In this document: positions 1-23,199 of the stretch, piece after piece
Layout: the number at the start of each line of letters is the position of its first letter
How positions within the stretch are numbered: position 1 is the stretch's first letter
NCBI GenBank assembly: GCA_965222855.1
Contig: CBDCUL010000007.1
Span: forward strand, 5,343 to 69,342
Length of the DNA stretch: 64,000 bases
Direction: 5' to 3'
From: Mycoplasmatales bacterium
Lineage (GTDB): Bacteria; Bacillota_I; Bacilli_A; Mycoplasmatales; JABABV01
Program-made: the position numbers and the translations under genes
Notes under the pieces: model-generated
Database searches by the model: none
Told to the model about the DNA's origin: nothing
The model's input: only the letters and a program-made list of their open reading frames with translations

Positions 1-1
1 C

Positions 2-481
2 TTTTGTCCGCTTAGTGTAGATGCATTCCATTACAACAATGTTAGAGTTCACCAGGCGCAGAAGCGGTTGCTATATAGGTATAAGGTTCTTATTTGTTTC
101 CTCACATTTGCCTTCTAAATATTCATTCTAAAGAATCTCAGATTATACAACTTGTATGTTATATTTGAATCCATTAGTGTGAATTCCTGTGGGTTTAATG
201 TGACCTACCATTTCCCAGTATTCTCATTACTCGAATCTACTCAGCATATACTCCATCAAATCAGTGCCTACTTTCAGATATTGGGACACTTGATAGATAT
301 TTTTGCATATTTGAATTTCAATCTAATCAATTTGCTATTAATCTATTTCATTACCAGAAAGAATTTCAAAAGAATGCCCTATTGCAGCAAGAAGTATCGC
401 TATTGTTATCAAGAATACTCTGCACCCTTGTTATCTGATACTAATAAAAATAACTTTTCTATTCTGTTTGTAATGAGCTAA
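2..481 (+). pseudogene. 3' fragment of a paralog of the 1346..2539 membrane protein; cut by the window start and carrying an in-frame TAA at 116..118
   Basis: The frame of track ORF 152..481 stays collinear with the C-terminal ~150 aa of the 1346..2539 product back to nt 2 (DAFHYNNVRVHQAQKRLLYRYKVLICFLTFAF*IFILKNL vs DAFHLNNTKVYLEQRRLLKLHKTLIYFLLFIFELHILKDL). The TAA aligns with a Glu codon of the paralog. Confidence 0.5.
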
Positions 482-1345
482 TTGTATTTGTTGTTCATTA
501 TTCATCATTTCATTCATTATTGTATTTGGAAACTATAATAATTAGAATATCTTATCCTCATTATCTTTTCTCTCTGTATGCACTTAAGTCAAATATACAT
601 ATATTTGTTATGCATTTCTGTTGAGAAGGTTTCCCATTAAATAATATATGTTAACAACAATCACAAAAGTTCAACAACAAAACCCAAATCTATTCAATAT
701 TACTACACTTAAAAGTACAGTTCACGAAAATATCTTAGGTACCTCCTAATGTAAACTTTTGAAATGTGTTCCACAAAATAATAATATCAACGCTTGAACT
801 TATCTAGATCTAAATTCGAATGTGTCAAAGGCAATACCAATACGCCAACCAAACGTTATACAAAGGGATTAGTTTTATAGGAAATATACTCGAGTTTATT
901 AGAGGGAAAGAAAGCACTGCAATGATTACTGGTGTGTATATGCTTACATCAATGAATTTGTGTGTATTACCAGTAATAGTGACTACACAACGGAGACTCC
1001 GGAACATGGAAATATATATACTAATGTAGAGTAAGCAGTGTAAGTATACTTTCTCTGCATAAGAGATCTAATTACTCCACTTAATGAATAGATTTGTAAC
1101 TAATATTCTAATAATCTAATAATAATATGGGCAAATAATATAATAAAGCAATATTGAAGTATAATGAATCCTGAATATTATACTTACTACATGGGAAATA
1201 TAAACAGAAATAATACAAACTTATATCTGAAATACTACACAATTAATTTAATTTTCACAAAATGGGTCAAAAATAATAATGTAGTATATACAATAAAAAT
1301 TAAGTAAATAATCATGATTCATGAATAATAGAATGTGTTTCTAAC

Positions 1346-2539
1346 TTAGGATAATAAGGGATCAGAAAATCCTTGATATCTATAGCGATAGATCTTCTTA
1401 TTGTAGAAATTCATTCTCTTTAAACATTTCAGAAAGAGAATATAGATAAATATCAAATTGATTACTACCATATTGAAATTGAAGATCAGTTCAATCACGG
1501 ATGCAGATATCAAAAGATACCAACTGATTCTATAAAGGATATGGCTGAGAGAGTCGGGTATTGTGAACACGGGAAAAGAGAAAGTGACATGAAACCAGCA
1601 AGAGTTCACACTGATAGATTCTAATATCATATACAAGCTGTATATTAGGAGATCTTTCAAAATGTGTAATTCGAAGATAAACAACAGAAAATAGATGAGT
1701 GTCTTATGCAGCTTTAATAATCTCCTCTGTTCTAGATATACCTTTGTATTGTTAAGATGGAACGCATCTATAATACGACTGTTCATTGCAGGAAAGAATT
1801 TCCTTCTTGCGATGTACAACACGAAAAAGAAAATAATTTGATTTTTCAAACTATAAGCTATTTTACAAAATAGGCTCACAGATGGAATCATTAAAGGTAC
1901 AGCAATAATAAGATTAATAGTTAATCCTATCAAGATGAAGCGAAGAATAACTTTAACTCTCAGTTCGTTTCTAGCAGCATAACTCAAGTGGAGGAGGGAT
2001 GCACCAAACATCCAAATCAACATCGAAAACGAAATGTTGTTAATTAATAAGCCAAAAATGTTTAACAGAATCATACCAAATCTATTGTCATATATGTTAG
2101 CTAGAAATGTATTTGAAATGAACTCGCAGTTCGGATCAATGGAGACTGGGATAGCCGGAAGCGGATCTAAAAGCCACGAAAATCCCCAAATATTAAAAAC
2201 CAAGCAATAACTCAGTTCAAAGCAAAGGAAGACAAGAAATATGGAATTTCGTAAGATAGTCTCTTTCTGCATGAAGAGACGATTCGCATAATCATGACCA
2301 GAATCGAGATAAATCAGAGTGACGAGTCTCCTTTTATTTCGTACATGTGAAATTATATCACATATGACGTAAATTAGCCAAAATATACAAAGTAAAGTGT
2401 ATACAAAACAAAACATTTGGTTCATGTAATAAACATCACTGCGAACGGAGTACAAATAGTCCATGTTGTTTGAACTATTTGAAAAATTTTGAGCTGACAT
2501 TGTATTTAAATTTAAATTGAAGAATATCTGATTATACAC
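1346..2539 (-). CDS. multi-pass (about 7 TM) membrane protein of unknown family, written in the standard code
   Basis: 397-aa ORF uninterrupted in the standard code with about 7 long hydrophobic segments. All 5 Trp codons are TGG and no TGA read-through is needed, unlike genes right of 2.9 kb. It is flanked by several hundred nt with no convincing coding sequence. Confidence 0.55.
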   Translation of the reverse strand: MYNQIFFNLNLNTMSAQNFSNSSNNMDYLYSVRSDVYYMNQMFCFVYTLLCIFWLIYVICDIISHVRNKRRLVTLIYLDSGHDYANRLFMQKETILRNSIFLVFLCFELSYCLVFNIWGFSWLLDPLPAIPVSIDPNCEFISNTFLANIYDNRFGMILLNIFGLLINNISFSMLIWMFGASLLHLSYAARNELRVKVILRFILIGLTINLIIAVPLMIPSVSLFCKIAYSLKNQIIFFFVLYIARRKFFPAMNSRIIDAFHLNNTKVYLEQRRLLKLHKTLIYFLLFIFELHILKDLLIYSLYMILESISVNSCWFHVTFSFPVFTIPDSLSHILYRISWYLLISASVIELIFNFNMVVINLIFIYILFLKCLKRMNFYNKKIYRYRYQGFSDPLLS

Positions 2540-2909
2540 TTCTGAAATGAAACTGAATGCATGATAAATCCTATAGATATTTATACTGAGGGAATCCAGT
2601 ATATAGGATACGTATTATGTATTATCATAAATTGAACCCTGAATTATAGTTCAAGGACATTACACATACTTGATAGAATGCTGATCCTACAGTAGATATG
2701 ACATCAATACATTAAGTATTCAGTAATTCATTATTAGTTATAAACAAGTGTAATCACAACAGATAGTAAATTAACCCAAGGAGATATTAAAATAAATTCC
2801 AATAGAGATGTCCCTTTACTTTTGCTATTTACTACAATATAGTGGCCCAGTATTGAATTGACTGCCTTGCTTGTACTAAACAGTCCTTCCATTTACAAGC
2901 AAAGATAGT

Positions 2910-3458
2910 TTAGATATTATAATTATTTTTAAAAACCATTTTAAACTCAACACAAAATGCTATTTCAATAATAAAGTTTTTATATTCTATTTTTATGACT
3001 TTATTACTATTAGATAATTTACAATTAAGTAATCTACTCTGCAAATATGAATAAACTAACTTTTTAAACGTTATAAATTTTAAAATACTTGTAGTTTTAA
3101 AATTATTATTTGTTGGAACATCTATGCATTTAGACATTTCTTTAGGTCATTTGTTAATAAATTTTTTATATGATTCTTTGCTGCGTATGAATGAATATAA
3201 AGAACATTGATATCCATTCAGCAAAGCATATGTATCAATATCACTTGGCGGAGTATTTCCATAACTTATATGAATACTAGTTTTACGATCATAAGAACCA
3301 TGATGAAGAACTTCTATTCCACTAATCTTTAAACCGCTTTTATCAGATAGTTTTTTGATGATATCTTTATCTGATAATAATTTTTTAACATTTTTTAACA
3401 AATCCATACCGTATTTTGGGGCTTTACCTTTTTTTACTAGTATATCTGTATTAACCAT
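2910..3458 (-). CDS. minimal Pol-beta-fold nucleotidyltransferase, SMODS/CD-NTase-like, 182 aa
   Basis: ATG at 3458 lies 8 nt after AAGGAGAG. Code-4 read-through of TGA 3147..3149 joins track ORFs 3147..3512 and 2910..3137 in frame, ending at TAA 2910..2912. NTase signature EVLHHGSYDRKTSIHISYGNTPPSDIDTYALL (GS...DxD), with a third acidic strand KCIDVP about 40 aa downstream. Confidence 0.6.
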
Positions 3459-3462
3459 CACT

Positions 3463-4143
3463 TTAACTCTCCTTGACCTTGTTTTTATTATGTCCAAATG
3501 AAAATCGATCAATAAAGTCGCTAGTATATGTATAACTTAATATTTCGTTATTTTCAATTACTAATTTAGCATGTCCATAGAAATCATGATAATTAGTAAT
3601 ATCATCTTTTAATTTTCGAGAGTTTGCTATATCACGTGAAAAATTAAATTTAAACTCAAATTCAAATTTATTTTTATTTATTCTTTTTCAATGACAAAAC
3701 TCTGAATTCGAAGCAGCACTATTAACATTATCAGTAATAGCTTTAGTTAATATGATTATTTCATTTGCTCATCAGTTATAACTGATTGTTATCTTTAATT
3801 TATAAAAGGTTTTCTTTAATTTGGTTTCTAATTTTTGATTAACTTCTAAATTAGCTTCTTTGATTTCACTATATAAATTACCAAATAAAAAGCCTTCACA
3901 TTCTTGAACAAATTCTTTATTCAAGAATTGCTTCATTGGTTTTTTTATAGTTAATCATTTAATAATTCCAGCAATACATATGAAGCGAAATACTTTTCAT
4001 ATACCAAAACTTAAAACAACAGTTAAAATCAGAATATATCAAGAATTATTGTGGTGTAATTCTCATTTAAATAAAAATGCATATATAGCCAAAAATACTA
4101 TATCACTAGTATTTATAATCAAATTACTTTTTGTTGACTTCAT
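3463..4143 (-). CDS. membrane protein, 2-3 N-terminal TM helices plus ~160-aa soluble C-terminal domain (effector-like), 226 aa
   Basis: GGAGG RBS then ATG at 4143. I checked every codon and the frame is open to TAA 3463..3465 when 7 TGA are read as Trp. Hydrophobic stretches IVFLAIYAFLF, WYILILTVVLSFGIW and FRFICIAGII. The stop lies 4 nt before the ATG of the NTase gene, consistent with translational coupling. Confidence 0.6.
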
Positions 4144-4224
4144 ATTTTACCTCCGATCATTATTTTATTTATATTGTATTGCCTTAAATTATCTTCGTTT
4201 TTTGTGATTTTTAACACAATTACG

Positions 4225-4233
4225 ATTATAACA
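4225..4233 (-). promoter_or_regulatory. extended -10 promoter (TGTTATAAT) for the TM-protein/NTase operon
   Basis: The reverse complement of attataaca gives TGTTATAAT about 80 nt upstream of ATG 4143 and downstream of the hairpin at 4266..4287. Confidence 0.4.
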
Positions 4234-4265
4234 CTACCATTCGATAAAAGCTTTTTAAATATAAC

Positions 4266-4287
4266 AAAAAGCACAAATGTGCTTTTT
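4266..4287. terminator. hairpin terminator separating the TPR gene from the TM/NTase operon
   Basis: aaaaagcac-aaat-gtgcttttt: a perfect stem flanked by A-run and T-run, so usable on either strand. Confidence 0.5.
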
Positions 4288-4345
4288 GATTTTTAAAATA
4301 TGTACCTAAAAATATATTATATATTACTTATAAATTTGTAGTTAG

Positions 4346-4780
4346 TTATTTTTTATTATCGTATTCTCAGTTACCTCTTCTTTCGCTATATTCCATTGCT
4401 CGCGCATTATAAAATTTACCTAATTTAATATTAGGTGCTTCTTTTTCTAATTTAAAGAACATTCCAATTATATCCTGAAAAATAACGGCTTTGTTAATAT
4501 TGGGGTACAATATTTGATCACATGTATTTATTGCATCTTCGTATAACGCTTCTTTTAAATTTGATTCTGTAGCATGTTCTATTCATTTAAACAAAGTAAA
4601 AGCTTTAGCAATCATTGCGTTAAAAAATGTTGGATCTTTTAAAAATGATTTGTGGTAATTTTCAACTGCCTCTTTGTATTTTTTATTTTTAATACAAAGA
4701 TTCCCATCTTCATAATATTCTTTTGAACTTTTACTAAGGTTTTCGAAAGTTTCTTGTTTAATATTGTTTATATCCTTCAT
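4346..4780 (-). CDS. TPR-like repeat protein, 144 aa
   Basis: Track ORF 4583..4780 continues through TGA in frame to TAA 4346..4348. Helical repeats of TPR type (KYKEAVENYHKSFLKDP, LKEALYEDAINTCDQIL, GKFYNARAMEYSERRGNW). Confidence 0.5.
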
Positions 4781-5026
4781 TCGATTTTCCTACTTTCTAT
4801 TAATTTAAATTAGTTATTTTTTAATATAGTACCTTCTAATATAACAAAATAACTCTATGTTTAGTTCGTATTTTAATGTTGATGTGTTATTTTTGTTTTT
4901 ATAATTTATTAACACAAAAATAATTATAGCATCAAATTTTAGGGTTTTTCAAGGATTTTTATTTATAAATAACTGAAAATTATTCAATAATTTTGCATAA
5001 TTTTTTATCAACCAATATATTTATTA

Positions 5027-5215
5027 ATCTAAAAGCATTATTATTACAAACAATTAGTAGTATATTGATATAGTTAACTTTGTAAACAAATAGTAATCAA
5101 GTGAACTTTTTATGGATAGCGCAGTTATAAAAAGGAGACCTAATATGAAATTAATAAATCTTAAAAAACAAGGATTAAAAACCCACGGGATATATCGCAT
5201 TTGAATCAACGAGGG
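5027..5215. repeat. copy 1 of a ~190-nt intergenic module also present at 9417..9610 (short remnant at ~7540..7575)
   Basis: Shared string tttattaatctaaaagcattatt...gtagtat...aaaaggagac(c)taatatgaaattaataaatcttaaaaaa. It contains a strong RBS plus a short ORF (MKLINLKK...). Confidence 0.6.
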
Positions 5216-5264
5216 ATAAAGCGATATATCATACATTTGCCAATCTAAAAATATCAATTTAAGA

Positions 5265-5762
5265 TTGAAAACTCATTTGAAGAAAATTGAAAAAGCGATC
5301 ATCCCCAAATTTATTGTTGATGATCGTGCAAACGCTTTAGAGTGGGATAAACGGATGGCTATTCCTGCAAAAGGAGCATTTTATTATAAAATGTACCTTT
5401 TGGAAAATATCTTGCAAAAACCACTTAATTTCTTAGAGTTAATTAATTTTGAAATTTTGGAAGAAGCTGATGTTGAATCAACTAGTTTTGAACTAGAATT
5501 AATCCAAATGAAATATATTAATCAGTTCGATAGTATTTGACGTGGTTTCAATGGTTATCATGCCATTTATTTTAAGTTAAGTAATTGATTACAATATACT
5601 AAAAATAAAGATGAAGAAGACCATGTTAAAAAATTAATGAAAATAAATGAAGCGACAATTAAGGAATTAAGTAAACGTAAGGATACTCCTAGAATGTGGT
5701 TGTTATTTAATTTAGGAAGGAAAGCAGAATACGAAATATTGTTTAGAAAATATATGTCATAG
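5265..5762 (+). CDS. hypothetical protein, ~165 aa (start uncertain)
   Basis: Track ORF 5265..5540 reads through TGA to TAG 5760..5762. A 5'-truncated second copy lies at 7573..7947. There is no clear RBS at the TTG start. Confidence 0.4.
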
Positions 5763-5796
5763 ATTGTTACTATAAGCAATGCTACATAATAATAAA

Positions 5797-5829
5797 AAAC
5801 AAATAAACTAATTATTTATTTGTTTTTTT
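5797..5829. terminator. bidirectional rho-independent terminator between convergent genes
   Basis: aaacaaataaa-loop-tttatttgttt followed by a T-run. Confidence 0.5.
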
Positions 5830-5923
5830 AGTTTTACTATATTATACATTATGAAATTAATTAAAATAATTTAATATTTCAGAATCGCATATTATTTTAA
5901 AACATTATCTTAAATTATACATA

Positions 5924-7480
5924 TTAAACTTGATAAAGACCATCATTAGTACTAGCGTATATTGTATTATCAATTTTTGTTATTCAATAAATTACAACAT
6001 TGGAAGGTATAGATGTGTTTTTGCTAAAAGTTTTACCATCATCAGTTGAAGTGTAAAGACCATCATCAGTAGTTGCGCATATTATATTATTGATTTTTGT
6101 TATTTTACTAATTTTGGCATCCGAAGGAATAGATTTATTTTGAATGAATATTTTACCATCATCAGTTGAAGTATAAAGGCCAGAATTAGCACCTACATAT
6201 ATTGTATTATCGATTTTTGTTATTTGGTTCATCCCAAATGCATCAAAATATTTATTTTTAGTGAAAGTTTTACCATTATTGGTTGAAATGTAAAGATCTG
6301 TTTTAGTATTAACATATATTCTATTATCAATTTTTGTTATTTTACTAATTTCAGCATCCGAAGGAATAGATATATTTTGGATAAAAGTTTTACCATCATC
6401 CGTTGAAATATAAAGGCCATAATAAAAAGTTGCAATAAATATTATTCTATTATCAATTTTTGTTATTTTACTAATTTCGGCATCTGAAGGCATAGATATG
6501 TTTTTACTAAAAGTTTTACCAGCATCAGTTGAAGTATAAAGACCAGCATAATCACTATTAATATATAATGTGTTATTGATTTTTGTTATTTCGTTAATTC
6601 CGGTATCTGAAGGTATCGATGTGTTTTTGCTAAAAGTTTTACCAGCATTAGTTGAAAAATAAAGGCCCATTCGAGTACAAACATATATTGTATTATCAAT
6701 TTTTGTTATTTCGTTAATTCCGGAATCCAAAGATATAGCTGTATTTTGGATAAAAGTTTTACCATCATCCGTTGAAATATAAAAACCTGTTTTAGTATTA
6801 ACATATATTCTATTATCAATTTTTGTTATTCAATAAATTACAACATTGGAAGATATAGATGTGTTTCGAGTAAAAGTTTTACCAGCATCAGTTGAAAGAT
6901 AAAGACCCATTCCAGTACAAACATATATTGTATTATCTATTTTTGTTATTTTGTTAATTCCGGAATCCGAAGATATAGCTGTATTTTGAGTAAAAGTTTT
7001 ACCATTATCCGTTGAAATATAAAGGATATTCCTATAAACTCCCGTTATAACATATATTGTATTATCTATTTTTGTTACTTGGTCAATCATTTTTGAATGT
7101 ATAAATGTATTTTTAATAAATTTATAATCTAAATCATCATTATATTTTCATTGATTCATATTATATTTGATATCATTATATTTAATCGTAAAAGACGCTA
7201 TCAAATTATATGCTGAATTAGTTATATTTACAGAAATTGTTTTCTTAGCATTATCGAACTCGAAATTAGCTAAAGATAATTGTGATGAGACATTATCTTT
7301 TCAATTTTGCATAGAACTACCTTTTATAATATCTTTTGATGAGTCGCTTGTTGCATCTTTTTTAAAATCTGCTCAAGATTCTTCAGATTTATGACTACAA
7401 CTAGTTAGAATCATAGTATTTAAAGCTATTGGTAAAATCACGCCAAAACTTATTAAACTTTTTTTAAATAATTTCTTCAT
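5924..7480 (-). CDS. BNR/Asp-box repeat (beta-propeller-like) lipoprotein, 518 aa
   Basis: Track ORFs 5984..6730 and 6830..7090 are in one frame with ATG 7480. The signal peptide ends in the lipobox ILTSC. There are about 11 repeats of ~40 aa, each with an Asp-box-like S-T-D-D/A-G-K-T-F and ITKIDNTIYV. Ends at TAA 5924..5926. Confidence 0.7.
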
Positions 7481-7572
7481 ATTAAACTCCTGTTTATTAT
7501 CGCTATTAAAATCACTATTGATTAAATAACATTATACAATATTTATTAATCTAAAAGTATTATTATTATTAT

Positions 7573-7947
7573 AAAATCTACCTCTTGGAAAATATCTTGC
7601 AAAAACCACTCAATTTCTTAGAGTTAATTAATTTTGAAATTTTGGAAGAAGCTAATATCGAATCAACTAGTTTTGAACTAGAATTAATCGAGATGAAATA
7701 CATTAATCAGTTTGATAGCATTTGACGTGGCTTTAATGGTTATCATGCAATTTATTTTAAGTTAAGTAATTGATTACAATATACTAAAAATAAAGATGAA
7801 GAAAATCACGTGAAAAAATTAATGAAAATAAATGAAGCAACAATTAAAGAATTAAGTAAATGTAAGGATACTTCTAAAATGTGATTATTATTTAATTTAG
7901 GTAGGAAAGCGGAATACGAAGTTCTTTTTAAAAAATATATGTTATAG
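7573..7947 (+). pseudogene. 5'-truncated copy of the 5265..5762 gene
   Basis: Collinear with codons ~45-165 of 5265..5762 (LENILQKPLNFLELINFEILEEA...), with the same TGA positions and ending TAG 7945..7947. The N-terminal part and any start context are missing. Confidence 0.5.
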
Positions 7948-8044
7948 ATAAAATAAAAAAATAAATAAAGAAATAATTCTTTATTTATTTTTTAGTTTTA
8001 CTATATTATAAATTATAAAATTAATAGATAATGATTTTAAAACA

Positions 8045-9361
8045 TTATCTTAAGTTATGAGTATTAAACTGATAAATACCATTAAATATAGTTAGGATAA
8101 ATATTGTATTATTGATTTTTGTTATTTGGCTAATGAAGGTTGAAGGTATAGATGGATTTTTGATCAAAGTTTTACCATCATCACTTGAATTGTAAAGACC
8201 AATATCAGTACCAATATATAATGTATTATCTATTTTTATTATTTGCTCAACTATCTCATCTGAAGATATAAATTTATTTAGGATGAAAGTTTTACCATCA
8301 TTAGTTAAAGTATAAAGACCATGATTAGTGCAAACATATATTGTATTATCGATTTTTGTTATTTGTAAAATTAGAGTATCTGAAGATATAGATGTATTTT
8401 GAGTAAAAGTTTTACCATCATTAGTTAAAGTATAAAGACCACGATTAGTGCAAACATATATTATATTATTGATTTTTATTATTTGGTCAATTTGGGTATC
8501 CGGAGGTGTAAATGTATTTTTGGTAAATATTTTACTATCATCACTTGAATTGTAAAGACCATTATTAGTGCAAACATATATTGTATTATCGATTTTTGTT
8601 ATTTTGGTAATTTTGGAATCCAAAGGTATAGATGTGTTTTTAGCAAAAGTTTTACCATCAGCACTGGAATTGTAAAGATTATGATTAGTGCAAACATATA
8701 TTGTATTATCAATTTTTGTTATTTGTAAAATTAGAGTATCTGAAGATATAGATGTATTTTGAGTAAAAGTTTTTCCATCATCCGTTGAATTGTAAAGACC
8801 ATGATTAGTGCAAACATATATTGTATTATTGATTTTTGTTATTTGGATAACTACAACATCCGAAGGAATAGATCTATTTTGAGTAAAGGTTTTAGCATCA
8901 TCAGTTAAAGTATAAAGACCATCGTGAGTACAAATATATATTATATTATCAATTATTGTTATTTGGATAACTGCAACATCCGAAGGTATCGATGTATTTT
9001 TACTGAATTTATTATCTAAATCATCATTATATTTCCATTGATTCATATTATATTTAATATCATTATATTTAATTGTAAAAGATGCTATCGAATTAGATGA
9101 TGAATTAGTTATTTCTACAGAAATTATTCTTTTAGTATTATCAACATTGAAATTACCTAAAGATAATTGTGATGATAGATTATCTTTTCACTTTTGCATA
9201 GAACTACCTTTTATAATATCTTTTGATGAGTCACTTGTTGCATCTTTTTTGAAATCTGCTCAGGATTCTTTATGACTACAACTAGTTAGAGCGATAGTAT
9301 TTAAAGCTATTGGTAAAATCACGCCAAAACTTATTAAACTTTTTTTAAATAATTTCTTCAT
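8045..9361 (-). CDS. BNR/Asp-box repeat lipoprotein paralog, 438 aa
   Basis: Track ORF 8045..9046 is in frame with ATG 9361. The first ~110 aa are near-identical to the 5924..7480 product, including the lipobox LTSC. About 8 repeats with STDDGKTF / ITKIDNTIYVCT. Confidence 0.7.
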
Positions 9362-9416
9362 ATTAAACTCCTTCTTATTATCTAATTATTAGCACTATTG
9401 ATTAAATACATTATAC

Positions 9417-9610
9417 AATATTTATTAATTTAAAAGCATTATTGTTACAAATGATTAGTAGTATATGATGTAGTTAATTTTGCAAATAAATATTAATCAA
9501 GTGGACTTTTTATATAACATAGTTATAAAAAGGAGACTAATATGAAATTAATAAATCTTAAAAAAGAAGGATTAAAAATCCATGGGATACATCACATTCG
9601 AATCAACAAC
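9417..9610. repeat. copy 2 of the ~190-nt intergenic module (see 5027..5215)
   Basis: The sequence aligns by eye with 5027..5215, including aaaaggagactaatatgaaattaataaatcttaaaaaa. Confidence 0.6.
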
Positions 9611-9776
9611 TTTTGAATTAAAATTGGATAATAATCATAACTTAAAATGAATTATACATTATTACGGTGATGAAGATCAATCTAAAAAAGAAAATAAATG
9701 ATTGCCAATAATAAATAGTTATTTTGAAAACGCCAATATCATATTAAAAAAATCATCTGATTTTTTTAAAGACTAA
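9582..9776 (+). CDS. small hypothetical protein, 64 aa (weak call)
   Basis: ATG 9582 to TAA 9774..9776 with two TGA read as Trp. In the 5027..5215 copy the equivalent ATG is ACG and the frame closes early, so it may be a decaying gene. Confidence 0.25.
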
Positions 9777-9936
9777 TCTTTTATTAATATAACCTAACAA
9801 AATACAAGAAAAGCCATTATATAATAATGACCCATTTTATCTTTTGTCCTTATTATCTTTCTTTGATAAAATTATAGTATATAGTAATACTGTTAATAAC
9901 TAATGATTGCATCAAAGAAATAATGAGGTTTAGTCT

Positions 9937-11085
9937 ATGTTTAAAAATAAATTATTACGTATTGGGTCGGTTGGAATTATGAGTCTGGGACTACTTAGTA
10001 TTAGTGCTAGTGCGCTTGTGGCTTGTGGTCATAAAAAGCATACTCCATCAAAATATAATTGAACTACTTTTTTAGCGGCCGCTAAAAAAGCTAGTGCAGC
10101 TGAAATTGTTGCTCCAAATAAAACAGCAATTGGCTGAGGTGATGTCCCTAATGCACAATTAGTTAAACAAAAAGAACCCATCATTACTGATCATAATATT
10201 GTTGTCCAAATTTATGCTAATCCAATTTGAGAAATTGCCTCATTTTCAATTTCAGCACCAGTTGATTACCAATATGATGCCAATAGTTGAACATGCAGCA
10301 TCTACCCACGATTAGTTCCTAATGGAACCTGAGATCAGTTTAAATATTTGGCAACTAAAGTTAGTCCAAATGATTTACTAAAAACTGCTAAAGTTGCCAA
10401 AAATTATGCTTCTTTCAAATGAGTAGGTAAAGCAGATACTAACGTGTGACAAAAAGATCAAGTTGCTGAATTTGACACTTATGGTGGCGATGGCACTACT
10501 AAAGTTGACCCTGTTGATATTATGCAAGGTGCGCCTAAAATTGACGAAGCTAATAAAACAATTAGTGCCATCATTTCAATTAAAGATAAAACTAAAGAAG
10601 GTACTTGCTATAGCAATCCTATCAAAGCAGTCATTAAATATAATAATGGCAATAACTATAATCTAAATCAATGAGTATTTAGTAAAATCAAACAATTACA
10701 ATCATTTGTTAGATGAACAACAATGTGACAAGCTGGCGATAAGGCAGCTCATACAGTCCAATTCTCGACATTCATTAAGCGCTATTGAACTGATTCAAGT
10801 CATTCAATGAATACTTTTATTTGATTTTGAATCCATTGAGACAATCATGGTGCTATTGCAAGTTATAGTCGTCGTGGTTCTGGATGAGATTGAAATACTA
10901 AAAACGGGACAACATATGAAATTTGATTTTGAATTACAACTAACACCGGACCATTACCAACGCATAGTGAATTACATCTAAGATTTAATTTTATGTATAA
11001 CGATATTAGTAATCATAATATTGGAACAGCTTTTAATTATGTATTTGTTACTAATGGTGCGCTTGTTTATCCACTAATTAGTTAA
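9937..11085 (+). CDS. lipoprotein, tandem paralog 1 of 5, 382 aa
   Basis: GAGG RBS, ATG 9937, signal peptide with lipobox LVACG. The frame is open to TAA 11083..11085 only with many TGA read as Trp. Conserved core W-x-K-x(3)-AEFD-x-YGG...TISAIISIKDK...NPIKA. Confidence 0.7.
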
Positions 11086-11284
11086 ATATTTTTTGATGTT
11101 AATAAAGTCATTATAAATATAAAAAATTTTAAATAATTATTTAAAATTTTTTTATGCTTAATTTAATAATAAAACAAAATCACAACCTTAGTTGTTGTCA
11201 GTGTATTAGTTTGATAAAATAATAGTATATAACAACACTTTTAATAATTACTCATTTTATCGAAGAAACAATGAGGTTGAGTCG

Positions 11285-12421
11285 ATGTTTAAAAATAAAT
11301 TATTACGGATTGGGTCGGTTGGAATTATGAGTCTGGGACTACTTAGTATTAGTGCTAGTGCTGTTGTTGCTTGCGGTCATAAAAAACCAGGTTTAAAATA
11401 TAATTGAACTACTTTTTTAGCTGCCGCCCAAAAAGCGAGTGGTGCTGAAATTGTTGCTCAATACAAGCAAACAATTGGTTGATACGACGTTCCGAGCAAC
11501 AAACTAATTAAACAAAAACCCGAATTCATCACAGGTCACAGTATTACAATTCAAGTTTATGCTAGTTCAATTTGGGAAGTTGCTTCATTTTCGATTAGTG
11601 CACCCGTGGACTATAAATATAGCGCAATTAATTGAAAATTAAGTATTAAACCAAAATCTGTGCCAACTGGTAGCTGAGAGCAATTTAAATATTTAGCAAG
11701 GACAATCAATGCGGCAACTTTACTAAAAACTGCTAAAGTTGCCAAAAATTATGCTTCTTTCAAATGGGAAGGTAAAGCAGATAGCAATGTTTGAAAAAAG
11801 ACTGATATAGCTGAGTTTGATCAATTTGGTGGTAGTGGTGGGACTAAAGCTGACCCAATTAATGTTATGCAAGGTGCTCCTAAAATTGACGAAGTTAATA
11901 AAACAATCACTGCCATCATTTCAATTGAAGATAAAACTAAAGAAGGCACTTGTTTTAGCAATCCAATCAAAGCAGTTGCTAAATATAATAATGGTGAAAA
12001 TTATGATCTTAGTAAATGATCATTTAGCAAAGTTAATCAATTACAATCGCATGCTAAATGATTAAGTATTTTTGCTTTTGAATTAGGAAAATGAAATAGC
12101 CTTGATTTTGCTCCTTTTACTGCAAGATCTTGAACTGCTTCTAATCATATCAGCACTAGTAATGATTGATTTTATAGCAATTGACAATTTAACCCAATTA
12201 CTAGTGTTATAAGAAGTATTCATGGTTGAGATACAAATACACCAACAGCAATGATTTATGAATTTGGTTATGATGTTCATTATAATATTTGACTTCCAGC
12301 TACAGGTTCATTTCATATCAAATTTTTATTCACTTATTATAATGTAAAAAATCATAATGTTGGTAATGCGTATAATTATGTCTTTTCACCTGATAGCTCA
12401 ACATTAGTTTACCCAAGCTAA
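11285..12421 (+). CDS. lipoprotein, tandem paralog 2 of 5, 378 aa
   Basis: Nearly the same signal peptide as paralog 1 (MFKNKLLRIGSVGIMSLGLLSISASAVVACG). Continuous in code 4 to TAA 12419..12421. Confidence 0.7.
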
Positions 12422-12618
12422 ATCTTTGCATTTTTTTAACTATAATACACTAGTAATAAAAAAATTTAAATTAATAATTTAAATTTTTTTATTACTGCTC
12501 TTCACATTTAAAATCAAGTGCTTAGTTGTTGTTGCGATATTAGTTTGATAAAATAAGATTATGAAGTAACTAAATTAATTATAAATTATTTGGTGATTTA
12601 AAAAGCGAGGCTTGATCT

Positions 12619-13737
12619 ATGTTTAAAAAGCAATTTTTTAGAATTAACGCAACATCTTTAATTGCAATTGGCTCATTATTATTAGGTCTAAATAGTTTAG
12701 TATCTTGTGGTCACAAAAGTAAAAAAGCAACATTTGCGACATTTTTAGCTGCTGCTGAAGCTACTTCGGCAGCAGCAATTGTTAATAACGCTAATCCAGA
12801 AGCAATCGCGTGACATAAAGTGAAACTTAATGATTTATTCAAACAAGGAAAACCAGTTATCATTGGCGAAACTATTACTCAACAAATTTATGCTGGCTCA
12901 ATTGGTGAAGTTGCTAAGTTTGAAATTAGTCCATCATATGATTATGTATATCGACTAAGATATTGAGGATGTGTTAAACAACCAAAATTTGAACCTGATG
13001 GGACGTGATTTCAATTTAAAACATTATCATTAATGGCAACAGCAGAGCAGCTTTTAAAAGCTGCTAGATTAGCAACTAATTGGTCTTCTTTTAAATGACA
13101 AGGACAGCCCCGTCTTAATGTGTGACAAAAATCTGAAAAAGCTGAATGAGATATTTATGGTGGCGCAGGTACTCGTGATGATCCACTTAATCTAATGCAT
13201 GGTCGCCCAGTAGTTGATGAAGTTAAACAAACAATTAGTGCGATCATTTCAATTAAATATGATGATAAAAAAGGTTGTTATGATGCTGATCCAATTAAAG
13301 CAATCATTCAATATACTCCCCATCTAAATTATCATATTAATTTATGAAAATTTAGTAAAATTAAACAAATTCAATCAATTGATAAATATAATCAAATTTT
13401 TAAAAATGAAGTTATTGCTGCAGATGATTTTCCAGATTTTGGTTCTAATAATTGAACTGATGAATCGCATATCTTAGATGCTTATCATTATTTATATAAC
13501 AATCAGCGTGATTTTGGAACAATTGCAAAAATTACATTTGATAGCGCTAGTTTTGTATCGGCTAATGATTATGGGATTACGAAACAAATTGTTTTCAACG
13601 TGAAAGCCAGTTGAGTTAATGTCCAATTCCGCCTCCGATTAACTTTTAGCTTTGTAAATGTTAATAATCAAAGAATTGGGTATGCATTTAATTATGTCTT
13701 TCCCGAAACTGACGCAATCATCATTATCGATAACTAA
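12619..13737 (+). CDS. lipoprotein, tandem paralog 3 of 5, 372 aa
   Basis: Track ORF 12619..12813 extended through TGA codons to TAA 13735..13737. Lipobox LVSCG and the same conserved core. A 19-bp perfect hairpin overlaps the stop. Confidence 0.7.
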
Positions 13738-13864
13738 ATATCATTCTGCAATTAAATGATATTTAGTTATCGACTATTAGTTTGATAAAATAATATTATA
13801 TATATAATATAAAACAAAAAAGATTATTGAAAATTATTTATTATTCAACAGCGAGGTAGAAACG

Positions 13865-15028
13865 ATGTTTAAAAATAAATTGTTTAAAATTAGCTTAGCA
13901 TCAATCGTGATTAGCGGTAGTATTGTTGCGGGATTAGGTAGTATATTTAGTCTTGTATCGTGTGGTCATAAAAGTAACCCACCAATAGCTGATTGAAATA
14001 GTTTTTATAAACAAGCTATCAATGAATCAACAATCAATATTATTAATAATGCTAATCCTTTAACAACTAAAGGTTGAAAAGATGATTATGAACCAGCTGA
14101 TTTTACAGCTGATAAGCCAATTGTTGTTAAGCAGACAATTTCAATTGTCATTCATGCTGTGCTATTAAAACAATTTGCCACTTTTCAAATTAGAGCATCA
14201 TCTGACTTTATTTATAATGTGAAAAGTTGAGAATGTATCAAACAACCACAATATAATGACAAAGCAGTTTGAGATTTCTTTAAAATAAGCGCGACCGCCG
14301 AAAGTGCTCCTAAATTATTAGTGCAAGCTAAGACATCACAATCTTGAAATAGTTTTAAATGAGACGGTGATGCTAGTATTAATGTTTGACAAAAATCTGA
14401 TCAAGCTGAATTTGATGTATATGGTGGTCTTGGTCAACACAATGACCCGCTTAATCTAATGCGTGGCTTTCCTAGTTTTGATGAAATTAATCACACTGTA
14501 AGTGCAATTATTTCAATTAAAGATAAAAATGGCACTTATGATGCTAATCCGATTAAAGCCACAATTAAGTTTGATACTTTAATTAATAAAAAATATTCTA
14601 TTGAAGATTGAACATTTAGTCAAGCAACTCAATATCAGTCATGAGAGAAAAATCAAGCCATTTTTAATAGTCAAGTTACTATCGCTAAAAATGATATTAA
14701 AAAATTTCAAAGTCATACTTGAGATAATCAAGACCATAGTGAAGATGCGCAAGCTTTTTTAAAAACTATTGGTTTACCTGGGATTACTAGAATTTTAACT
14801 TTTAAAAGTTCTGAAGTTAATTTTCAAATTGATTCATCAGGAATAACTTCGGTAATTGTTCTTAATGTTAAAGATCAATTTAACCATATGTTAGCAGAGT
14901 TTGATGTAAAATATACTTTTAAATTTAGAGATCCAAGTAAAAGTACGACTACCGGGAGCGCCTTTAATTATATCTTTGATACTCATAATAGTGTTCATCC
15001 GACTCATAAGCAACATTTTAAAATTTAG
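13865..15028 (+). CDS. lipoprotein, tandem paralog 4 of 5, 387 aa
   Basis: ATG 13865, lipobox LVSCG, family core (AEFDVYGG..., TVSAIISIKDKNG), TAG 15026..15028. Confidence 0.65.
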
Positions 15029-15046
15029 AACACGAGGTTAGAAATA

Positions 15047-16237
15047 ATGTTTAAAAATAAATATTTTAAATTAGGAAGTATTTCAACTATGGCTATTGGT
15101 CTAAGTGTTGGCGGGAGTGTTGCTTTTGTATCTTGTGGTCATAAGCACAAAGCAACGTTCGGAACGTTCGGAACATTCCAAACTGCAGCATTAAAAGAGA
15201 ATGTTGCTAATATTGTTAAGAATGCCAAAGTTAAAGCAAGTAGTTGAGTTGGATTTAAAGATGATGATTTTACTAAACAAGGGCTCCCAACAATTGAAGG
15301 TCACAAAATCACAATTAAAATTTATGCCAAATCCAACTGAACAATTGCTTCTTTTTCAATAACTGCTCCTGCTAATAATGTCTATCGTGTTGGTGATTGA
15401 GAATGTAGCAACCAACCAGCATTAGTACCAAATGGAACATGAGAGCAATTTAAAACACTAGCTTTAGCCGAAACACCAACCAACCTCCTAAGCACTGTTA
15501 AAAAAGTACCAAATTATAAAAAAAATTTTAAATGAGATGGTGATGCTAATATTAATGCTTGAGCCGAAAATGCGATCCCAGAATTTGATGTATATGGTGG
15601 TAGTGGTACTACTGGAGATCCATTAGATGTGATGCATGGACAGCCTTTAATTGATCAATCTAAGCAAACAGTTACTGCTATTATATCAATCAAAGATAGC
15701 ACTAAAGAGGGCTTATATGATGCTGATCCAATCAAAGCAGTTATTAGATATACTAATAACGTAAACTACCATGTTAGTGATTGAATCTTCACTCCAATAG
15801 TTCAGAGTCAATCATTCATTAAATATAAATCAATTTTTGAAACTGAAATTGCTGTTGCTAAAGCTGTGAGTAAAGACACTTTTGATAGTTTCGGAAGTCA
15901 TAATTGACTTGGAAATCTTTCGCAAATGCCGAATGGTCACAATAGTGTTTCCTTGATAACTCATAATGATCACAGTACGACTGCTACTGATTTTTTATCG
16001 GGAGCTGGGTTTTTTTCAGTAATTGATGATCGGAGATTTAATCGTGTCGATGATTTTACTACTATTCAAGGTGGTTTAATTTCTGCTATTGTATTTGATA
16101 TAATTACTGGAGTTGGTGAAAAAGATGGTCAATTTCGCCTAGTATTTACTTTTAAATTTGTTGATGATAACCATCATATTGGAATGGCTTTTAATTATTT
16201 ATTTCCGAAAGCTCATGCTTTATATTTTACTAATTAA
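15047..16237 (+). CDS. lipoprotein, tandem paralog 5 of 5, 396 aa
   Basis: Track ORFs 15047..15247 and 15926..16237 share one frame. Lipobox FVSCG. Starts 18 nt after paralog 4 with a GAGG RBS. Confidence 0.65.
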
Positions 16238-16299
16238 TTAATCAGGTTTAAATAATTATTTTTGAAATAAAAGTAATTATTTTTAATTGTAAAATTTAG

Positions 16300-16345
16300 T
16301 TGACATTCTCAAACATTTTATATACAATGTATTTGATAATGTCAA
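16300..16345 (+). promoter_or_regulatory. consensus sigma-70-type promoter (TTGACA-17 nt-TACAAT) embedded in an inverted repeat TTGACATT...AATGTCAA, likely the MarR operator
   Basis: TTGACA at 16300..16305 and TACAAT at 16323..16328. The 8-nt arms at 16300..16307 and 16338..16345 are perfect reverse complements. Confidence 0.55.
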
Positions 16346-16396
16346 ACAATTATCTAAAATAAATATCAGAACTTAAAATCGGAAGTGGGATTTAAT

Positions 16397-16840
16397 ATGG
16401 ATAAATATACAAATGCGATTTGCTTGTTTAATCAATTAGTGGCAAAAAGAAAACGCCACATTAAAAAATTACTATGTGAATTTGATTTATCAGCATTGCA
16501 AGGTAAAATTATTTATTTATTAGCTCACAGCGAAAAACATAAACAAAAAGTTAATGCAATTGCGCAAGAATATAGCCTAGATTATGGCCAACTATCACGC
16601 GCAATTACAAAAATGGAAAAAGACAAGGTCATTTTTTTTCAAAATGACCTTGAAGATAAGCGTCAAAAATATATTGTCTTGAATAAAGAATCACTAATTG
16701 TCAAAAGTTTTAAAGCAAAATTTTGAGAACAATTTAATAGTGAATTCCGCAGCTTAGATCAAAATGAGATTATTATTTTTGAAAAACTTTTACAAAGGAT
16801 GGTGAATAGTGATGACTCAATTAACCAAAAAACAAATTAA
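16397..16840 (+). CDS. MarR-family transcriptional regulator, 147 aa
   Basis: Winged-helix-like region (VNAIAQEYSLDYGQLSRAITKMEKDKVIFFQNDLEDKRQKYIVL). Read-through of TGA 16724..16726 gives TAA 16838..16840, overlapping the next gene by 29 nt. Confidence 0.6.
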
Positions 16841-18563
16841 AACAAATCGTGCCCATTATATGTTTGGCGAGATGAAAGTGCCAAAAGCAATTTTAAAAAT
16901 TGGAATCCCCTCAATTATCGGGATGTTAGTGATGGGATTATATACTTTCTTTGATTCGTTTATGGCACAAAGATTATTATCGAGTGAAGGTTATTCAATT
17001 GGGATAGCTTCTTCGAAAATTAATCCAATCGTAACCGGATTAATGTCATTTGGATTTTTATTTGCCTTAGGGGGCGCAACGCGATTTAGCGTTGCCCTCG
17101 GTCAAAAAAATCCCGAAAGGCAAAAAGAAATTGCCGCATGATCATTTTTCGTTGGATTTGTTGTAGTTATTTTAATTACTTTAATTACAAAATTTTCATT
17201 GAATGCAATTTGACGTGCCCAAGCAATTTCATCTAACGATCCAGCAATCGTTAATTATGCAATTCCTTTTCTAAATATTTATTTATGAGGAAGTATTATC
17301 CAGTTCGTCTTTATGTTTTTTACTAACTTCTTACGAAGTGATGGTTTAAACGGTGTCGCAGCTGGAGCTTATATTTTATCTTCAGTTGTTAATATATTTT
17401 TAGATTGAATCTTTATGAGTCCCCATATTGCCGCAATGGGTTATAAAGGAGGCGCCCTAGCTACTACTCTAGCTTGAGTAGTAGGTCTAGTTTACGTCTT
17501 ATTCTTCTATTTTAGAAATATTCGCCATGGGGGTCATTTTATTATTCACCCCAAATATTTACGTGGTGGTAAAAAAATTATTTTATTAGTTATGTTAATT
17601 GGACTAACACCATTTGCACGAAATTTTGGTGGCTCAATTACTTCAACTGTGGGAAATCATTTCTTATCTAATTTACCATCCCATCCAATTAATTGGGATG
17701 CCAATGCAATTCAGCAATGAATTGCAGGTATAAAAGCCCATGGTGGGTGAAGTGCGATTCCAGCATCCTTCCGGACTTTCTTAGAATCGCATGGAATTCA
17801 CAATATGAATGAGTTGACCGTTAATAGTTTAGAGGCTGTCCTCCAGCAAAGTTTCGGTAGTCAATATTGACAACGTTTATTTGCTGGAGTAATGCCAATG
17901 TTAATGCTGTTCTTTATGCCGTCATTTGGAATTATTCAAGCATCTCGAGGCTTGATTGCTTACAATTACGGTGCTAAAAATAAAGAACGTGTTATTCAAG
18001 GTGTTTGATGAACTATCATGATGGCAGTATCTTACTTCATTTTAGCAACAATTGTTATTATGTTAGCAGGTCATGCAATCGCCGCTGGCTTCAACGTTAC
18101 TAATAATGCGACAGTTGGAATTTTAGTTAATGGTCATATGTTAACACTTGGTTCAATGCCAACGCTAGGTAACGATGTTCAAAAAGTTATTTACATTATG
18201 TTTTGATCATTACCAGTTTATGGGATTCAATTTGGAGCAATGACTTTCTTCCAGTCAACTAACCGAATTGTTTGATCAACATTTATGGCACTTCTAAGAG
18301 GGGTTATTATTGAAATTCCTTCACTATTCTTACTATCTAGTCTAGCGCATCATTACAATGATGCTTGACTATACTTCTGAGGCTATCCAGTAATGGATGT
18401 TGTTTCAACACTAATCACCATTCCGATTATGTTTTGAGCACTTCATCAACTTAAAGTTAATGGCTTTAAAAAAGATATGGATGAAGAAGCTAATATGAAC
18501 GTGTACAAAGAAGAAAAAATTGAAGAAGTTGACGAATTTGCTTTAAAAATTAAAGCAACTTAA
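16812..18563 (+). CDS. MATE-family multidrug efflux transporter, 583 aa
   Basis: Track ORFs 16809..17141 and 18018..18206 are in one frame, with many TGA-Trp and about 12 hydrophobic segments. MATE-like N-terminus (KILKIGIPSIIGMLVMGLYTFFDSFM). TAA 18561..18563. Confidence 0.6.
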
Positions 18564-18661
18564 AAGACTTTTATAAGTTTATTAATATAAAAAATAACTA
18601 ATCATTAATTAGTTATTTTTTTTAATATCAAAATTTATTTTCATTATTTTAAATAATAACA

Positions 18662-18758
18662 TTGTAATTTGTTTTTATCTATGTTAATATAGTGGTGCGT
18701 CATTGTGCCAAAAGTGGCGCATCAGAGTTTGTGGACTCTTTAAAACCCACTTTTTTTT
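18662..18758 (+). ncRNA. candidate small RNA minigene, copy 1 (promoter + hairpin + terminator)
   Basis: TTGTAA-17 nt-TAATAT (18662..18690), then UGGUGCGUCA-loop-UGGCGCAUCA (a 10-bp stem), then GTGGA..CCCAC plus T8 ending at 18758. Confidence 0.45.
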
Positions 18759-18790
18759 ATGCACTATATTTATTATTTATGATAAAGATA

Positions 18791-18887
18791 TTGTAATTTA
18801 TTTTTATCTGTGTTAGTATGGTGGTAAGCTATTCTTTTAAAGATGGTGACTTGGAAGTTTGTGGGGCCTTTAAAACCCACTTTTTTT
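18791..18887 (+). ncRNA. candidate small RNA minigene, copy 2
   Basis: TTGTAA-17 nt-TAGTAT (18791..18819), a ~60-nt body homologous to copies 1 and 3, then GTGGG..CCCAC plus T7 ending at 18887. Confidence 0.45.
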
Positions 18888-23183: not shown

Positions 23184-23199
23184 AATAACCTCGCATTAA

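What the first reader, a model, noticed from the sequence alone, without database searches (positions are those of the whole stretch)
1..2909. Abrupt switch of coding style and composition at ~2.9 kb: chimeric join or foreign DNA
Left of ~2905 the sequence contains G/C-containing words that are rare in the rest of the window. It has long stretches with no convincing coding sequence (482..1345, 2540..2909). Its genes read in the standard code: the 397-aa ORF has five Trp codons, all TGG, and no in-frame TGA. Right of 2910 the picture reverses. Genes are tightly packed, extremely AT-rich, and Trp is overwhelmingly TGA. The TAA stop of the NTase gene (2910..2912) sits right at the boundary. This pattern fits a host/symbiont mis-assembly, a scaffold join, or a recent acquisition from a non-Mollicute, possibly eukaryotic, source.
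Basis: partly seen in the sequence, partly recalled or inferred. Interest (0 to 1): 0.6.

Follow-up and report, generated by a model that had tools for sequence, protein, structure and literature searches.

The report
Sponge host DNA joined to symbiont contig
The first 2.9 kb of the window is nuclear DNA of a glass sponge, carrying a receptor-like gene family, joined in the middle of a bacterial gene to the chromosome of the sponge's mycoplasma-like symbiont; this is most likely an assembly or read chimera to trim from the genome bin, not a natural gene transfer.

Summary
Window 1-2925 is the end of an 8,267-bp block that starts the contig (C7:1-8267).

What the block is:
- It uses the standard code: 6 TGG and 0 TGA in the 397-aa ORF. 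The bacterial side has 257 TGA and 10 TGG.
- It has sparse ORFs and a host-like 5-mer signature.
- It is 92-98% identical, non-coding DNA included, to tandem gene arrays on a 402-kb eukaryotic ENA contig.
- The 397-aa gene belongs to an unannotated family of more than 200 members. The fold is 7TM and GPCR-like. The only named relative is from the glass sponge Oopsacas minuta.
- The family is absent from 60 related Mollicute genomes.

What the join looks like:
- Host homology stops at window 2913-2926, inside the bacterial nucleotidyltransferase gene.
- That gene is left without the CD_NTase_C half that its only relative has.
- A second contig of the same bin (C9) shows the same pattern. A bacterial gene is cut and followed by 15.9 kb of sponge-type DNA.
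- Both foreign blocks are terminal and about the length of a long read.

Verdict: a host-symbiont chimeric contig (about 0.78). Interest is low, but the result matters for curation.

The parts
1..2925 (.). Eukaryotic (glass-sponge-type) nuclear DNA. It is the last 2.9 kb of an 8,267-bp block that begins at the contig start (C7:1-8267).
   Evidence: 92-98% identical to L008, a 402-kb ENA contig (ERZ25072730 ctg83083_307x_l), non-coding DNA included. Host-like 5-mer likelihood ratio. Low code-4 ORF density. Standard-code Trp usage.
1346..2539 (-). Intact, intronless 397-aa gene of an expanded sponge family of 7TM, GPCR-like membrane proteins.
   Evidence: 205 relatives. The closest are 80-90% identical and lie on 0.1-1.15 Mb ENA contigs; the only named one is Oopsacas minuta LOD99_11795 at 49% identity. 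No Pfam match. AF2 model with pLDDT 80 and pTM 0.78 shows seven long helices. The top 50 PDB Foldseek hits are all GPCRs, with TM-scores of 0.2-0.48. 0 of 60 related Mollicute genomes have it.
17..442 (+). 3' fragment, probably a pseudogene, of a second subfamily of the same 7TM family. It contains the 109-aa ORF at 152-481.
   Evidence: 82% identical to residues 255-396 of P0076. 50% identical to the C-terminus of the 397-aa protein. One in-frame TAA.
504..2925 (.). Copy B of the ~4.9-kb tandem array unit. Copy A lies upstream of the window at C7:984-3403.
   Evidence: 94.7% identity over 2,428 nt. The two copies diverge completely after window 2925, where copy A continues as host DNA. The gene in copy A carries two stop codons.
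2913..2926 (.). Junction zone, a stretch of A and T only. The last unambiguous host base is G2913, and the first base that disagrees with all host copies is 2927.
   Evidence: Four-way alignment of copy B, copy A and two L008 copies. No long shared repeat and no adapter visible in the sequence shown.
2910..3458 (-). Bacterial SMODS/CD-NTase-like nucleotidyltransferase gene (182 aa), cut at its 3' end by the junction. The stop codon and up to about 4 codons come from host-type DNA.
   Evidence: Its only relative among 1.8 billion representatives is P0122 (371 aa). The alignment is colinear, query 7-179 to P0122 13-195, and P0122 goes on for another 176 residues that carry CD_NTase_C, PF26305. 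P0122 sits in a TGA=Trp organism, with an overlapping upstream gene. Weak SMODS hit.
3463..4143 (-). Bacterial 226-aa partner gene of the NTase cassette, with 7 TGA=Trp codons.
   Evidence: ORF list under code 4. Weak similarity (25%, E = 0.005) to the gene upstream of P0122. Found only on this contig in the 5.8-billion-protein collection.
2927..64000 (.). Genuine chromosome of the code-4, Mollicute-type symbiont. It includes the single-copy genes pheT (31819-34209, minus strand) and ffh (35261-36616, minus strand).
   Evidence: NCBIfam equivalog hits for pheT and ffh. Each occurs once in the bin. 96% of Trp codons are TGA and long ORFs cover 80%. Same-genus genomes match at 65-76% DNA identity.

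Best explanation
Contig C7 of this metagenome-assembled Mollicute genome is an inter-genome chimera. Its first 8,267 bp (window 1-2925) are nuclear DNA of the glass-sponge host. This is part of a tandem array of an intronless 7TM receptor-like gene family. The rest is the symbiont's real chromosome.

The two were joined in vitro or in silico. The most likely route is one or a few chimeric long reads, formed by ligation or template switching. Such a read would have extended a low-coverage end of the symbiont contig into host sequence. Assembly then stopped in the host's tandem repeats.

Shown: the two origins, the exact breakpoint zone, the cut bacterial gene, and a second junction of the same kind in the bin. 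Inferred: that the join is artefactual rather than biological, and the route by which it arose.
For: Two origins:
- The left block is 92-98% identical to a 402-kb eukaryotic contig, non-coding DNA and a pseudogene copy included.
- Its gene family has more than 200 members on Mb-scale ENA contigs, and the only named relative is from Oopsacas minuta.
- None of 60 related Mollicutes has it, including 3 of the same genus, one of them a single 1-Mb contig.
- The right side carries single-copy pheT and ffh, and 96% of its Trp codons are TGA.

Illegitimate break on both sides:
- Host paralogues continue with host DNA past window 2925.
- The bacterial NTase loses the CD_NTase_C half found in its only relative.

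Recurrence:
- C9 of the same bin switches at about C9:37,355.
- There it cuts a SocA-partner gene whose same-genus homologue runs about 52 residues further.
- The cut is followed by 15.9 kb holding RING, MULE, THAP and U-box/E2 genes. The E2 family has an Oopsacas relative and is 91% identical to another host contig, ctg83003_283x_l.

Shape of the foreign blocks:
- Both are terminal and 8.3 and 15.9 kb long, about one HiFi read.
- No shared repeat longer than about 13-17 nt lies at the C7 junction. This argues against a repeat-driven graph error and for a chimeric molecule.

Other outliers: all other compositional or coding outliers in the bin are bacterial features, namely 16S x2, 23S/5S and a CRISPR array.

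Literature: long-read metagenome assemblers, metaMDBG among them, produce chimeric contigs, some joining different domains of life (bioRxiv 10.1101/2025.04.22.649783).
Against: No read-level evidence was available.

The exact host block has no identical copy elsewhere in the protein collection; the best paralogue is 90% identical. I therefore could not show the 'empty' host site.

The missing 3' parts of the two cut bacterial genes were not found on any other contig of the bin. That is also what a real deletion or insertion would give.

Exactly two junctions among 16 contigs is also what a single real insertion event would leave.

That the bin came from a HiFi/metaMDBG pipeline is inferred only from the naming of related ENA contigs.
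Confidence: 0.78

Rival explanations
1. Genuine symbiont-to-host transfer. A large piece of the Mollicute chromosome, or all of it, is integrated in the sponge nuclear genome inside the 7TM gene array, as Wolbachia DNA is in insect and nematode genomes. C7 and C9 would carry the two real insert-host junctions.
For: Both junctions cut bacterial genes and the missing parts are absent from the bin. There are exactly two junctions among 32 contig ends. The host blocks are unique in the collection. The short A/T-only overlap at the junction is compatible with end-joining.
Against: The host side ends after 8-16 kb, although neighbouring host arrays assemble into 240-400 kb contigs.

The two host blocks are unrelated, are not adjacent in the fetched host loci, and do not overlap each other.

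The bacterial part is fully intact, dense and code-4, and holds the bin's only pheT and ffh. There is thus no separate bacterial copy, as would be expected if a free-living symbiont and an insert coexisted.

C7 and C9 were binned with the other symbiont contigs. This suggests symbiont-like, not host-like (about 300x), coverage; that is an inference.
Confidence: 0.12
2. Genuine host-to-symbiont transfer. At least 8 kb of sponge nuclear DNA, possibly one fragment of at least 24 kb whose two ends are C7-left and C9-right, was inserted very recently into the symbiont chromosome. It would have deleted the DNA between the SocA-partner gene and the NTase gene.
For: One event would explain both truncated genes and the absence of their 3' parts. 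The contig break would fall in the host tandem repeats.
Against: No contig shows host DNA flanked by bacterial DNA on both sides.

The block is mostly non-coding and pseudogenic eukaryotic DNA at 92-98% identity to host paralogues, with no amelioration.

It is absent from all 60 relatives.

C9-right and C7-left share no sequence and show no linkage in the fetched host loci.

It is my own judgement, from general knowledge and not a search, that uptake of more than 8 kb of functionless eukaryotic DNA by a 1-Mb reduced Mollicute genome has no precedent.
Confidence: 0.04
3. Binning or scaffolding error only. C7 would be a scaffold made by joining a separate host contig and a symbiont contig after assembly.
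For: The blocks are terminal, and composition differs sharply on the two sides.
Against: There are no Ns or gap at the junction, and no contig contains N. The join is seamless within an A/T stretch, in the middle of a gene. This is what a contig-level chimera looks like, not a scaffold.
Confidence: 0.04

Closest known systems
Inter-genome (cross-domain) chimeric contigs in long-read metagenome assemblies and MAGs
   Same: There is an abrupt change of gene-level taxonomy, genetic code, codon usage and k-mer composition at one point. The breakpoint lies inside a gene. The foreign segment sits at a contig end. A second case occurs in the same bin. Such contigs are described for metaMDBG, metaFlye and hifiasm-meta (bioRxiv 10.1101/2025.04.22.649783).
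   Different: The diagnostic read clipping or coverage step could not be checked here. GC content, the usual flag, hardly changes because host and symbiont are both AT-rich.
Nuclear integrations of endosymbiont DNA (for example Wolbachia inserts in insect and nematode genomes; own knowledge)
   Same: Bacterial chromosome sequence abuts host nuclear DNA, with genes cut at the junction.
   Different: Host DNA is seen on one side only and for less than 16 kb. The bacterial genes are intact and are the bin's only copy. No spanning-read or second-specimen support.
Lineage-specific expansions of intronless 7TM/GPCR-like chemoreceptor-type families in animals
   Same: The left block carries tandemly arrayed, intronless copies, some of them pseudogenes, of a 7-helix membrane protein. 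The protein has an N-terminal NxS/T-rich tail and a conserved C-terminal YRYQ..S.PLLS tail.
   Different: There is no Pfam or PDB sequence match. Structural similarity to GPCRs is weak, with TM-scores of 0.2-0.48. G-protein coupling and the ligand are unknown.
CD-NTase / SMODS nucleotidyltransferases of CBASS-like defence cassettes
   Same: The first bacterial gene has a weak SMODS N-terminal core and an upstream membrane-protein partner.
   Different: The copy in the window lacks the CD_NTase_C half present in its only relative. As assembled, it is a truncated gene and not a 'minimal' enzyme.

Membership tests
Host-symbiont chimeric contig (assembly or read artefact) | Two adjoining segments of different organismal origin | tested here: met
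   The left side is sponge-type DNA. The right side is a Mollicute with pheT, ffh and TGA=Trp. The family is absent from 60 relatives.
Host-symbiont chimeric contig (assembly or read artefact) | A single sharp breakpoint that disrupts colinearity or genes on both sides | tested here: met
   Host paralogues continue differently after window 2925. The NTase is cut relative to P0122.
Host-symbiont chimeric contig (assembly or read artefact) | Reads clipped at the breakpoint, or a coverage step across it | not testable with these tools
Host-symbiont chimeric contig (assembly or read artefact) | The locus exists intact, without the join, elsewhere (empty host site or continuous bacterial sequence) | tested here: inconclusive
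   Only paralogous host loci were found, at 90-93% identity. No other assembly of this symbiont exists in the collection. The missing gene halves are not in the bin.
Genuine lateral transfer (either direction) | The foreign segment is flanked on both sides by recipient DNA in one molecule | tested here: not met
   Both foreign blocks run to a contig end, at C7:1 and C9:53260.
Genuine lateral transfer (host to symbiont) | Presence in related bacterial genomes, or signs of amelioration or selection in the recipient | tested here: not met
   0 of 60 relatives have it. The block keeps host codon usage and non-coding DNA, and is 92-98% identical to host paralogues.
GPCR-like 7TM receptors | Seven transmembrane helices in a GPCR-type arrangement | tested here: inconclusive
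   The AF2 model has seven long helices. All top-50 PDB hits are GPCRs, but with TM-scores of only 0.2-0.48 and E-values of 8e-4 or weaker. No Pfam or PDB sequence hit.
CD-NTase / SMODS | N-terminal Pol-beta-type core plus the C-terminal CD_NTase_C helical domain | tested here: not met
   The SMODS hit is below the gathering score, 19.1 against 26.5 bits. The C-terminal domain is absent from the 182-aa product and present in the relative P0122.

The most novel reading that the evidence does not exclude
The junctions are real. A large, still intact stretch of a Mollicute symbiont chromosome would be integrated in a glass-sponge nuclear genome, or sponge DNA would be integrated in the symbiont. 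Either would be a very recent inter-domain transfer in an early-branching animal.
Probability: 0.15. Interest if true: 0.75.

Novelty: not a real feature. Interest (0 to 1): 0.15.

Why it matters
The main value is for curation.

- About 24 kb (2.4%) of this species-representative bin is sponge DNA: C7:1-8267 and C9:~37,357-53,260. Marker-based contamination estimates miss it (0.72% reported), and GC plots barely show it because both partners are AT-rich. It should be trimmed before any analysis of gene content or transfer.
- The result changes the reading of the neighbouring 'minimal CBASS-like' cassette. Its 182-aa nucleotidyltransferase is a truncated gene, not a compact enzyme.
- As a by-product, the block exposes a large, unannotated, tandemly arrayed 7TM receptor-like family in hexactinellid sponges. 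This may interest people who study early animal signalling.
- If the junctions proved real, they would document a very recent inter-domain DNA transfer in a sponge holobiont.

Tried and rejected
- Exact-sequence look-ups of the host gene, the NTase (both start choices), the TPR gene and the C9 MULE ORF found no other contig.
- A homology search with the gene next to the NTase found only the contig itself. No second assembly of this symbiont is available for comparison.
- tblastn for the missing C-terminal half of the NTase, using P0122 residues 196-371, found nothing significant in the bin. The same was true for the missing tail of the C9 gene, using the G001 homologue.
- I tested whether C9-right and C7-left are two ends of one host locus. 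They share no sequence and show no colinearity with the fetched host loci L008 and L032. The 69-74% match of L008 to C9:42-44 kb is in the wrong orientation and looks like a dispersed repeat.
- Synteny across the junction in same-genus genomes could not be used. The region right of the junction consists of fast-evolving lipoprotein and defence genes with no conserved order.
- GC content and tetranucleotide distance alone were rejected as adequate markers.
- The other low-coding or odd-composition regions of the bin were checked as possible further host DNA. They proved bacterial: two 16S genes, 23S/5S, a CRISPR array and small-gene islands.
- The Pfam and PDB sequence searches of the 7TM family gave nothing.
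Full report
**Setting.** The window is bases 5343-69342 of contig C7 (72,923 bp). C7 belongs to a 1.009-Mb, 16-contig genome bin that is 87% complete, with 0.72% estimated contamination and 24-30% GC per contig. It continues upstream to the very start of the contig.

**Check of the observation.** The switch is real.
- The 397-aa ORF at 1346-2539 (minus strand) has six TGG codons and no TGA.
- The 38 long ORFs to the right use TGA for Trp 257 times and TGG 10 times. Only 1 of 26 bacterial ORFs of at least 350 codons lacks a TGA. GC3 is 0.39 on the left and 0.17 on the right.
- Stop-to-stop ORFs of at least 100 aa under code 4 cover 89% of the bin, but as little as 22% of C7:1-7000.
- Plain GC is a poor discriminator. 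It is about 30% on the left, 23-25% just to the right, and 28-33% in the housekeeping parts of the same window. Tetranucleotide distance from the bin mean is only z = 1.6-2.4.
- A 5-mer likelihood ratio is clear. It sets host DNA not homologous to the block against the bulk of the bin. Every 500-nt window from 1 to 2750 is positive. Every window from 2751 to 6250 lies between -28 and -64 per kb.
- The background is -61 +/- 23. Only 1.6% of background windows are above zero. The positive 1-kb windows outside the two foreign blocks lie in the rRNA and CRISPR regions.

**What the left block is.**
- The 397-aa protein has no Pfam match.
- It has 205 relatives in the 5.8-billion-protein collection. 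The closest are 80-90% identical and lie on ENA contigs of 0.1-1.15 Mb. The only named one is a hypothetical protein of the glass sponge Oopsacas minuta, at 49% identity.
- One such contig, ERZ25072730 ctg83083_307x_l (402 kb), was fetched as L008. C7:1-8267 aligns to its gene arrays at 92-98% identity over coding and non-coding DNA alike.
- Within C7 the block is itself a tandem array. Window 504-2925 repeats C7:984-3403 at 94.7% identity. The upstream gene copy carries two stop codons.
- Window 17-442 is a 3' fragment of a second subfamily, 82% identical to P0076, with an in-frame TAA.
- An AlphaFold2 model built on 21 family members has pLDDT 80 and pTM 0.78, and shows seven long helices. 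All 50 best PDB matches are GPCRs, but with weak TM-scores of 0.2-0.48. A profile search of PDB sequences found nothing.
- None of 60 related Mollicute genomes encodes the family. These include three of the same genus, one of them a single 1-Mb contig.

The block is therefore host nuclear DNA. It is a tandem array of an intronless 7TM receptor-like family that is expanded in hexactinellid sponges.

**What the right side is.** It is a normal code-4 Mollicute chromosome.
- pheT and ffh are found at equivalog level, and each occurs once in the bin.
- ORFs are dense and rich in TGA.
- Same-genus genomes match at 65-76% DNA identity.

**The junction.**
- Aligning the window copy with copy A and with two L008 copies shows host homology up to window 2925. 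After that the sequences diverge completely. The host copies read GGAAATAGTTAATG..., while the window reads TTTTTAAAAACC....
- Bases 2914-2926 are all A or T, so the break can only be placed between 2913 and 2926.
- This lies inside the 182-aa nucleotidyltransferase ORF (2910-3458, minus strand).
- An exhaustive search of 1.8 billion representative proteins found a single relative, P0122 (371 aa). It aligns colinearly, query 7-179 to P0122 13-195, and then continues for 176 residues.
- P0122 is encoded in another TGA=Trp organism, behind an overlapping 217-aa gene that weakly resembles the window's 226-aa partner. Its C-terminal half carries the CD_NTase_C domain.
- The window's gene is therefore most likely cut by the junction. 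Its 'stop codon at the boundary' is a chance stop in host-type sequence.
- The missing half is not elsewhere in the bin.

**A second junction in the same bin.**
- Screening the bin for host-like composition and low coding density flagged one more region, the right end of C9.
- From about C9:37,355 to the contig end (15.9 kb) the ORFs use TGG only. They include a C3HC4 RING finger, a MULE transposase, a THAP domain and a broken U-box/E2 gene.
- The E2 family again has an Oopsacas minuta relative. The block is 91% identical over 3 kb to another contig of the same ENA assembly, ctg83003_283x_l.
- The last bacterial gene before the switch is the partner of a SocA/Panacea-type gene. It matches its 275-aa homologue in same-genus genome G001 up to residue 243, then diverges and stops 21 codons later. 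The G001 protein continues for about 52 residues.
- This second junction therefore cuts a bacterial gene as well, and the missing tail is again absent from the bin.
- Every other outlier is bacterial: two 16S genes on C1, 23S/5S on C12, and a 59-repeat CRISPR array with Cas1 on C11.

**Interpretation.** A chimeric contig is the best explanation. The points in its favour are:
- The two origins are plain, and the breakpoints are illegitimate on both sides.
- The foreign blocks are short and terminal, 8.3 and 15.9 kb, about the length of one HiFi read.
- The two blocks come from unrelated host loci.
- No shared repeat longer than about 13-17 nt lies at the C7 junction.

The most likely route is one or a few chimeric long reads that extended low-coverage ends of symbiont contigs into host sequence. 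Assembly then halted in host repeats.

Long-read metagenome assemblers are documented to emit such cross-domain chimeras (10.1101/2025.04.22.649783). Sponge 'associated metagenome' pipelines use metaMDBG on host-rich HiFi data (PMC13224822). That this bin came from such a pipeline is my inference, drawn from the contig names of the related ENA assembly.

**What keeps the rivals alive.**
- No identical 'empty' host site, and no second assembly of the symbiont, exists in the collections.
- The absence of the missing gene halves, and the count of exactly two junctions, are also what a single real insertion would leave.
- A symbiont-to-host insertion is disfavoured for three reasons. The host flanks are short, although neighbouring arrays assemble into 240-400 kb contigs. 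The two host blocks are not linked. The bacterial part is intact and is the only copy in the bin.
- A host-to-symbiont transfer is disfavoured for three reasons. The block is non-functional and unameliorated. It is absent from all relatives. There is no two-sided bacterial flank.

I put the chimera at about 0.78, a real symbiont-to-host insert at about 0.12, a host-to-symbiont transfer at about 0.04, and a scaffold-level join at about 0.04.

**Verdict.** The feature is an artefact of assembly or library preparation, not a biological element. C7:1-8267 and C9:~37,357-53,260 should be trimmed from the bin. The 182-aa nucleotidyltransferase should be treated as a truncated gene. Interest is low apart from curation and the incidental view of a large unannotated 7TM family in glass sponges.

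Noticed in passing
G000:C9:~37,355-53,260 (L009 ~1,356-17,261), outside the window: A second host/symbiont junction in the same bin. A SocA-partner gene is cut about 52 codons short of its same-genus homologue. It is followed by 15.9 kb of sponge-type DNA with RING finger, MULE transposase, THAP and broken U-box/E2 genes. That DNA is 91% identical to ENA contig ctg83003_283x_l.
   Followed up: yes
window 2910-4143: The two-gene 'TM protein + 182-aa SMODS-like NTase' cassette, noted elsewhere as a possible minimal CBASS-like system, is incomplete as assembled. The NTase lacks the CD_NTase_C half seen in its only relative, P0122 (371 aa), which has the same two-gene layout in another TGA=Trp organism.
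   Followed up: yes
window 1346-2539 (minus strand) and L008 8,500-21,000: Glass-sponge genomes carry a large family of intronless ~385-397-aa 7TM, GPCR-like genes with no Pfam family. There are at least 205 members, in at least two subfamilies that are ~50% identical to each other. They are tandemly arrayed and have a conserved C-terminal YRYQ..S.PLLS tail.
   Followed up: partly
G000:C11:~176,600-182,500 (L010 2,599-8,480): A CRISPR array of about 59 repeats, with a 36-nt repeat GTTTAAGAGTGTATAAATACTGTATAGGAATAAAAC and a 66-nt period, next to a Cas1 gene. It is the strongest compositional outlier of the bin.
   Followed up: partly
G000:C1:109,005-110,525 and 115,151-116,671; C12:~59,600-62,700: Two identical-scoring 16S rRNA genes lie 6.1 kb apart on C1, with lipoprotein genes between them. 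They are unlinked from the 23S-5S pair on C12, so this Mollicute has a split rRNA operon.
   Followed up: partly
L032 14,900-18,300 (host contig ctg83003_283x_l): An LTR-retrotransposon gene set (protease, RVT_1, RNase H, integrase) lies next to the host U-box/E2 gene. This supports the eukaryotic nature of these ENA contigs.
   Followed up: no
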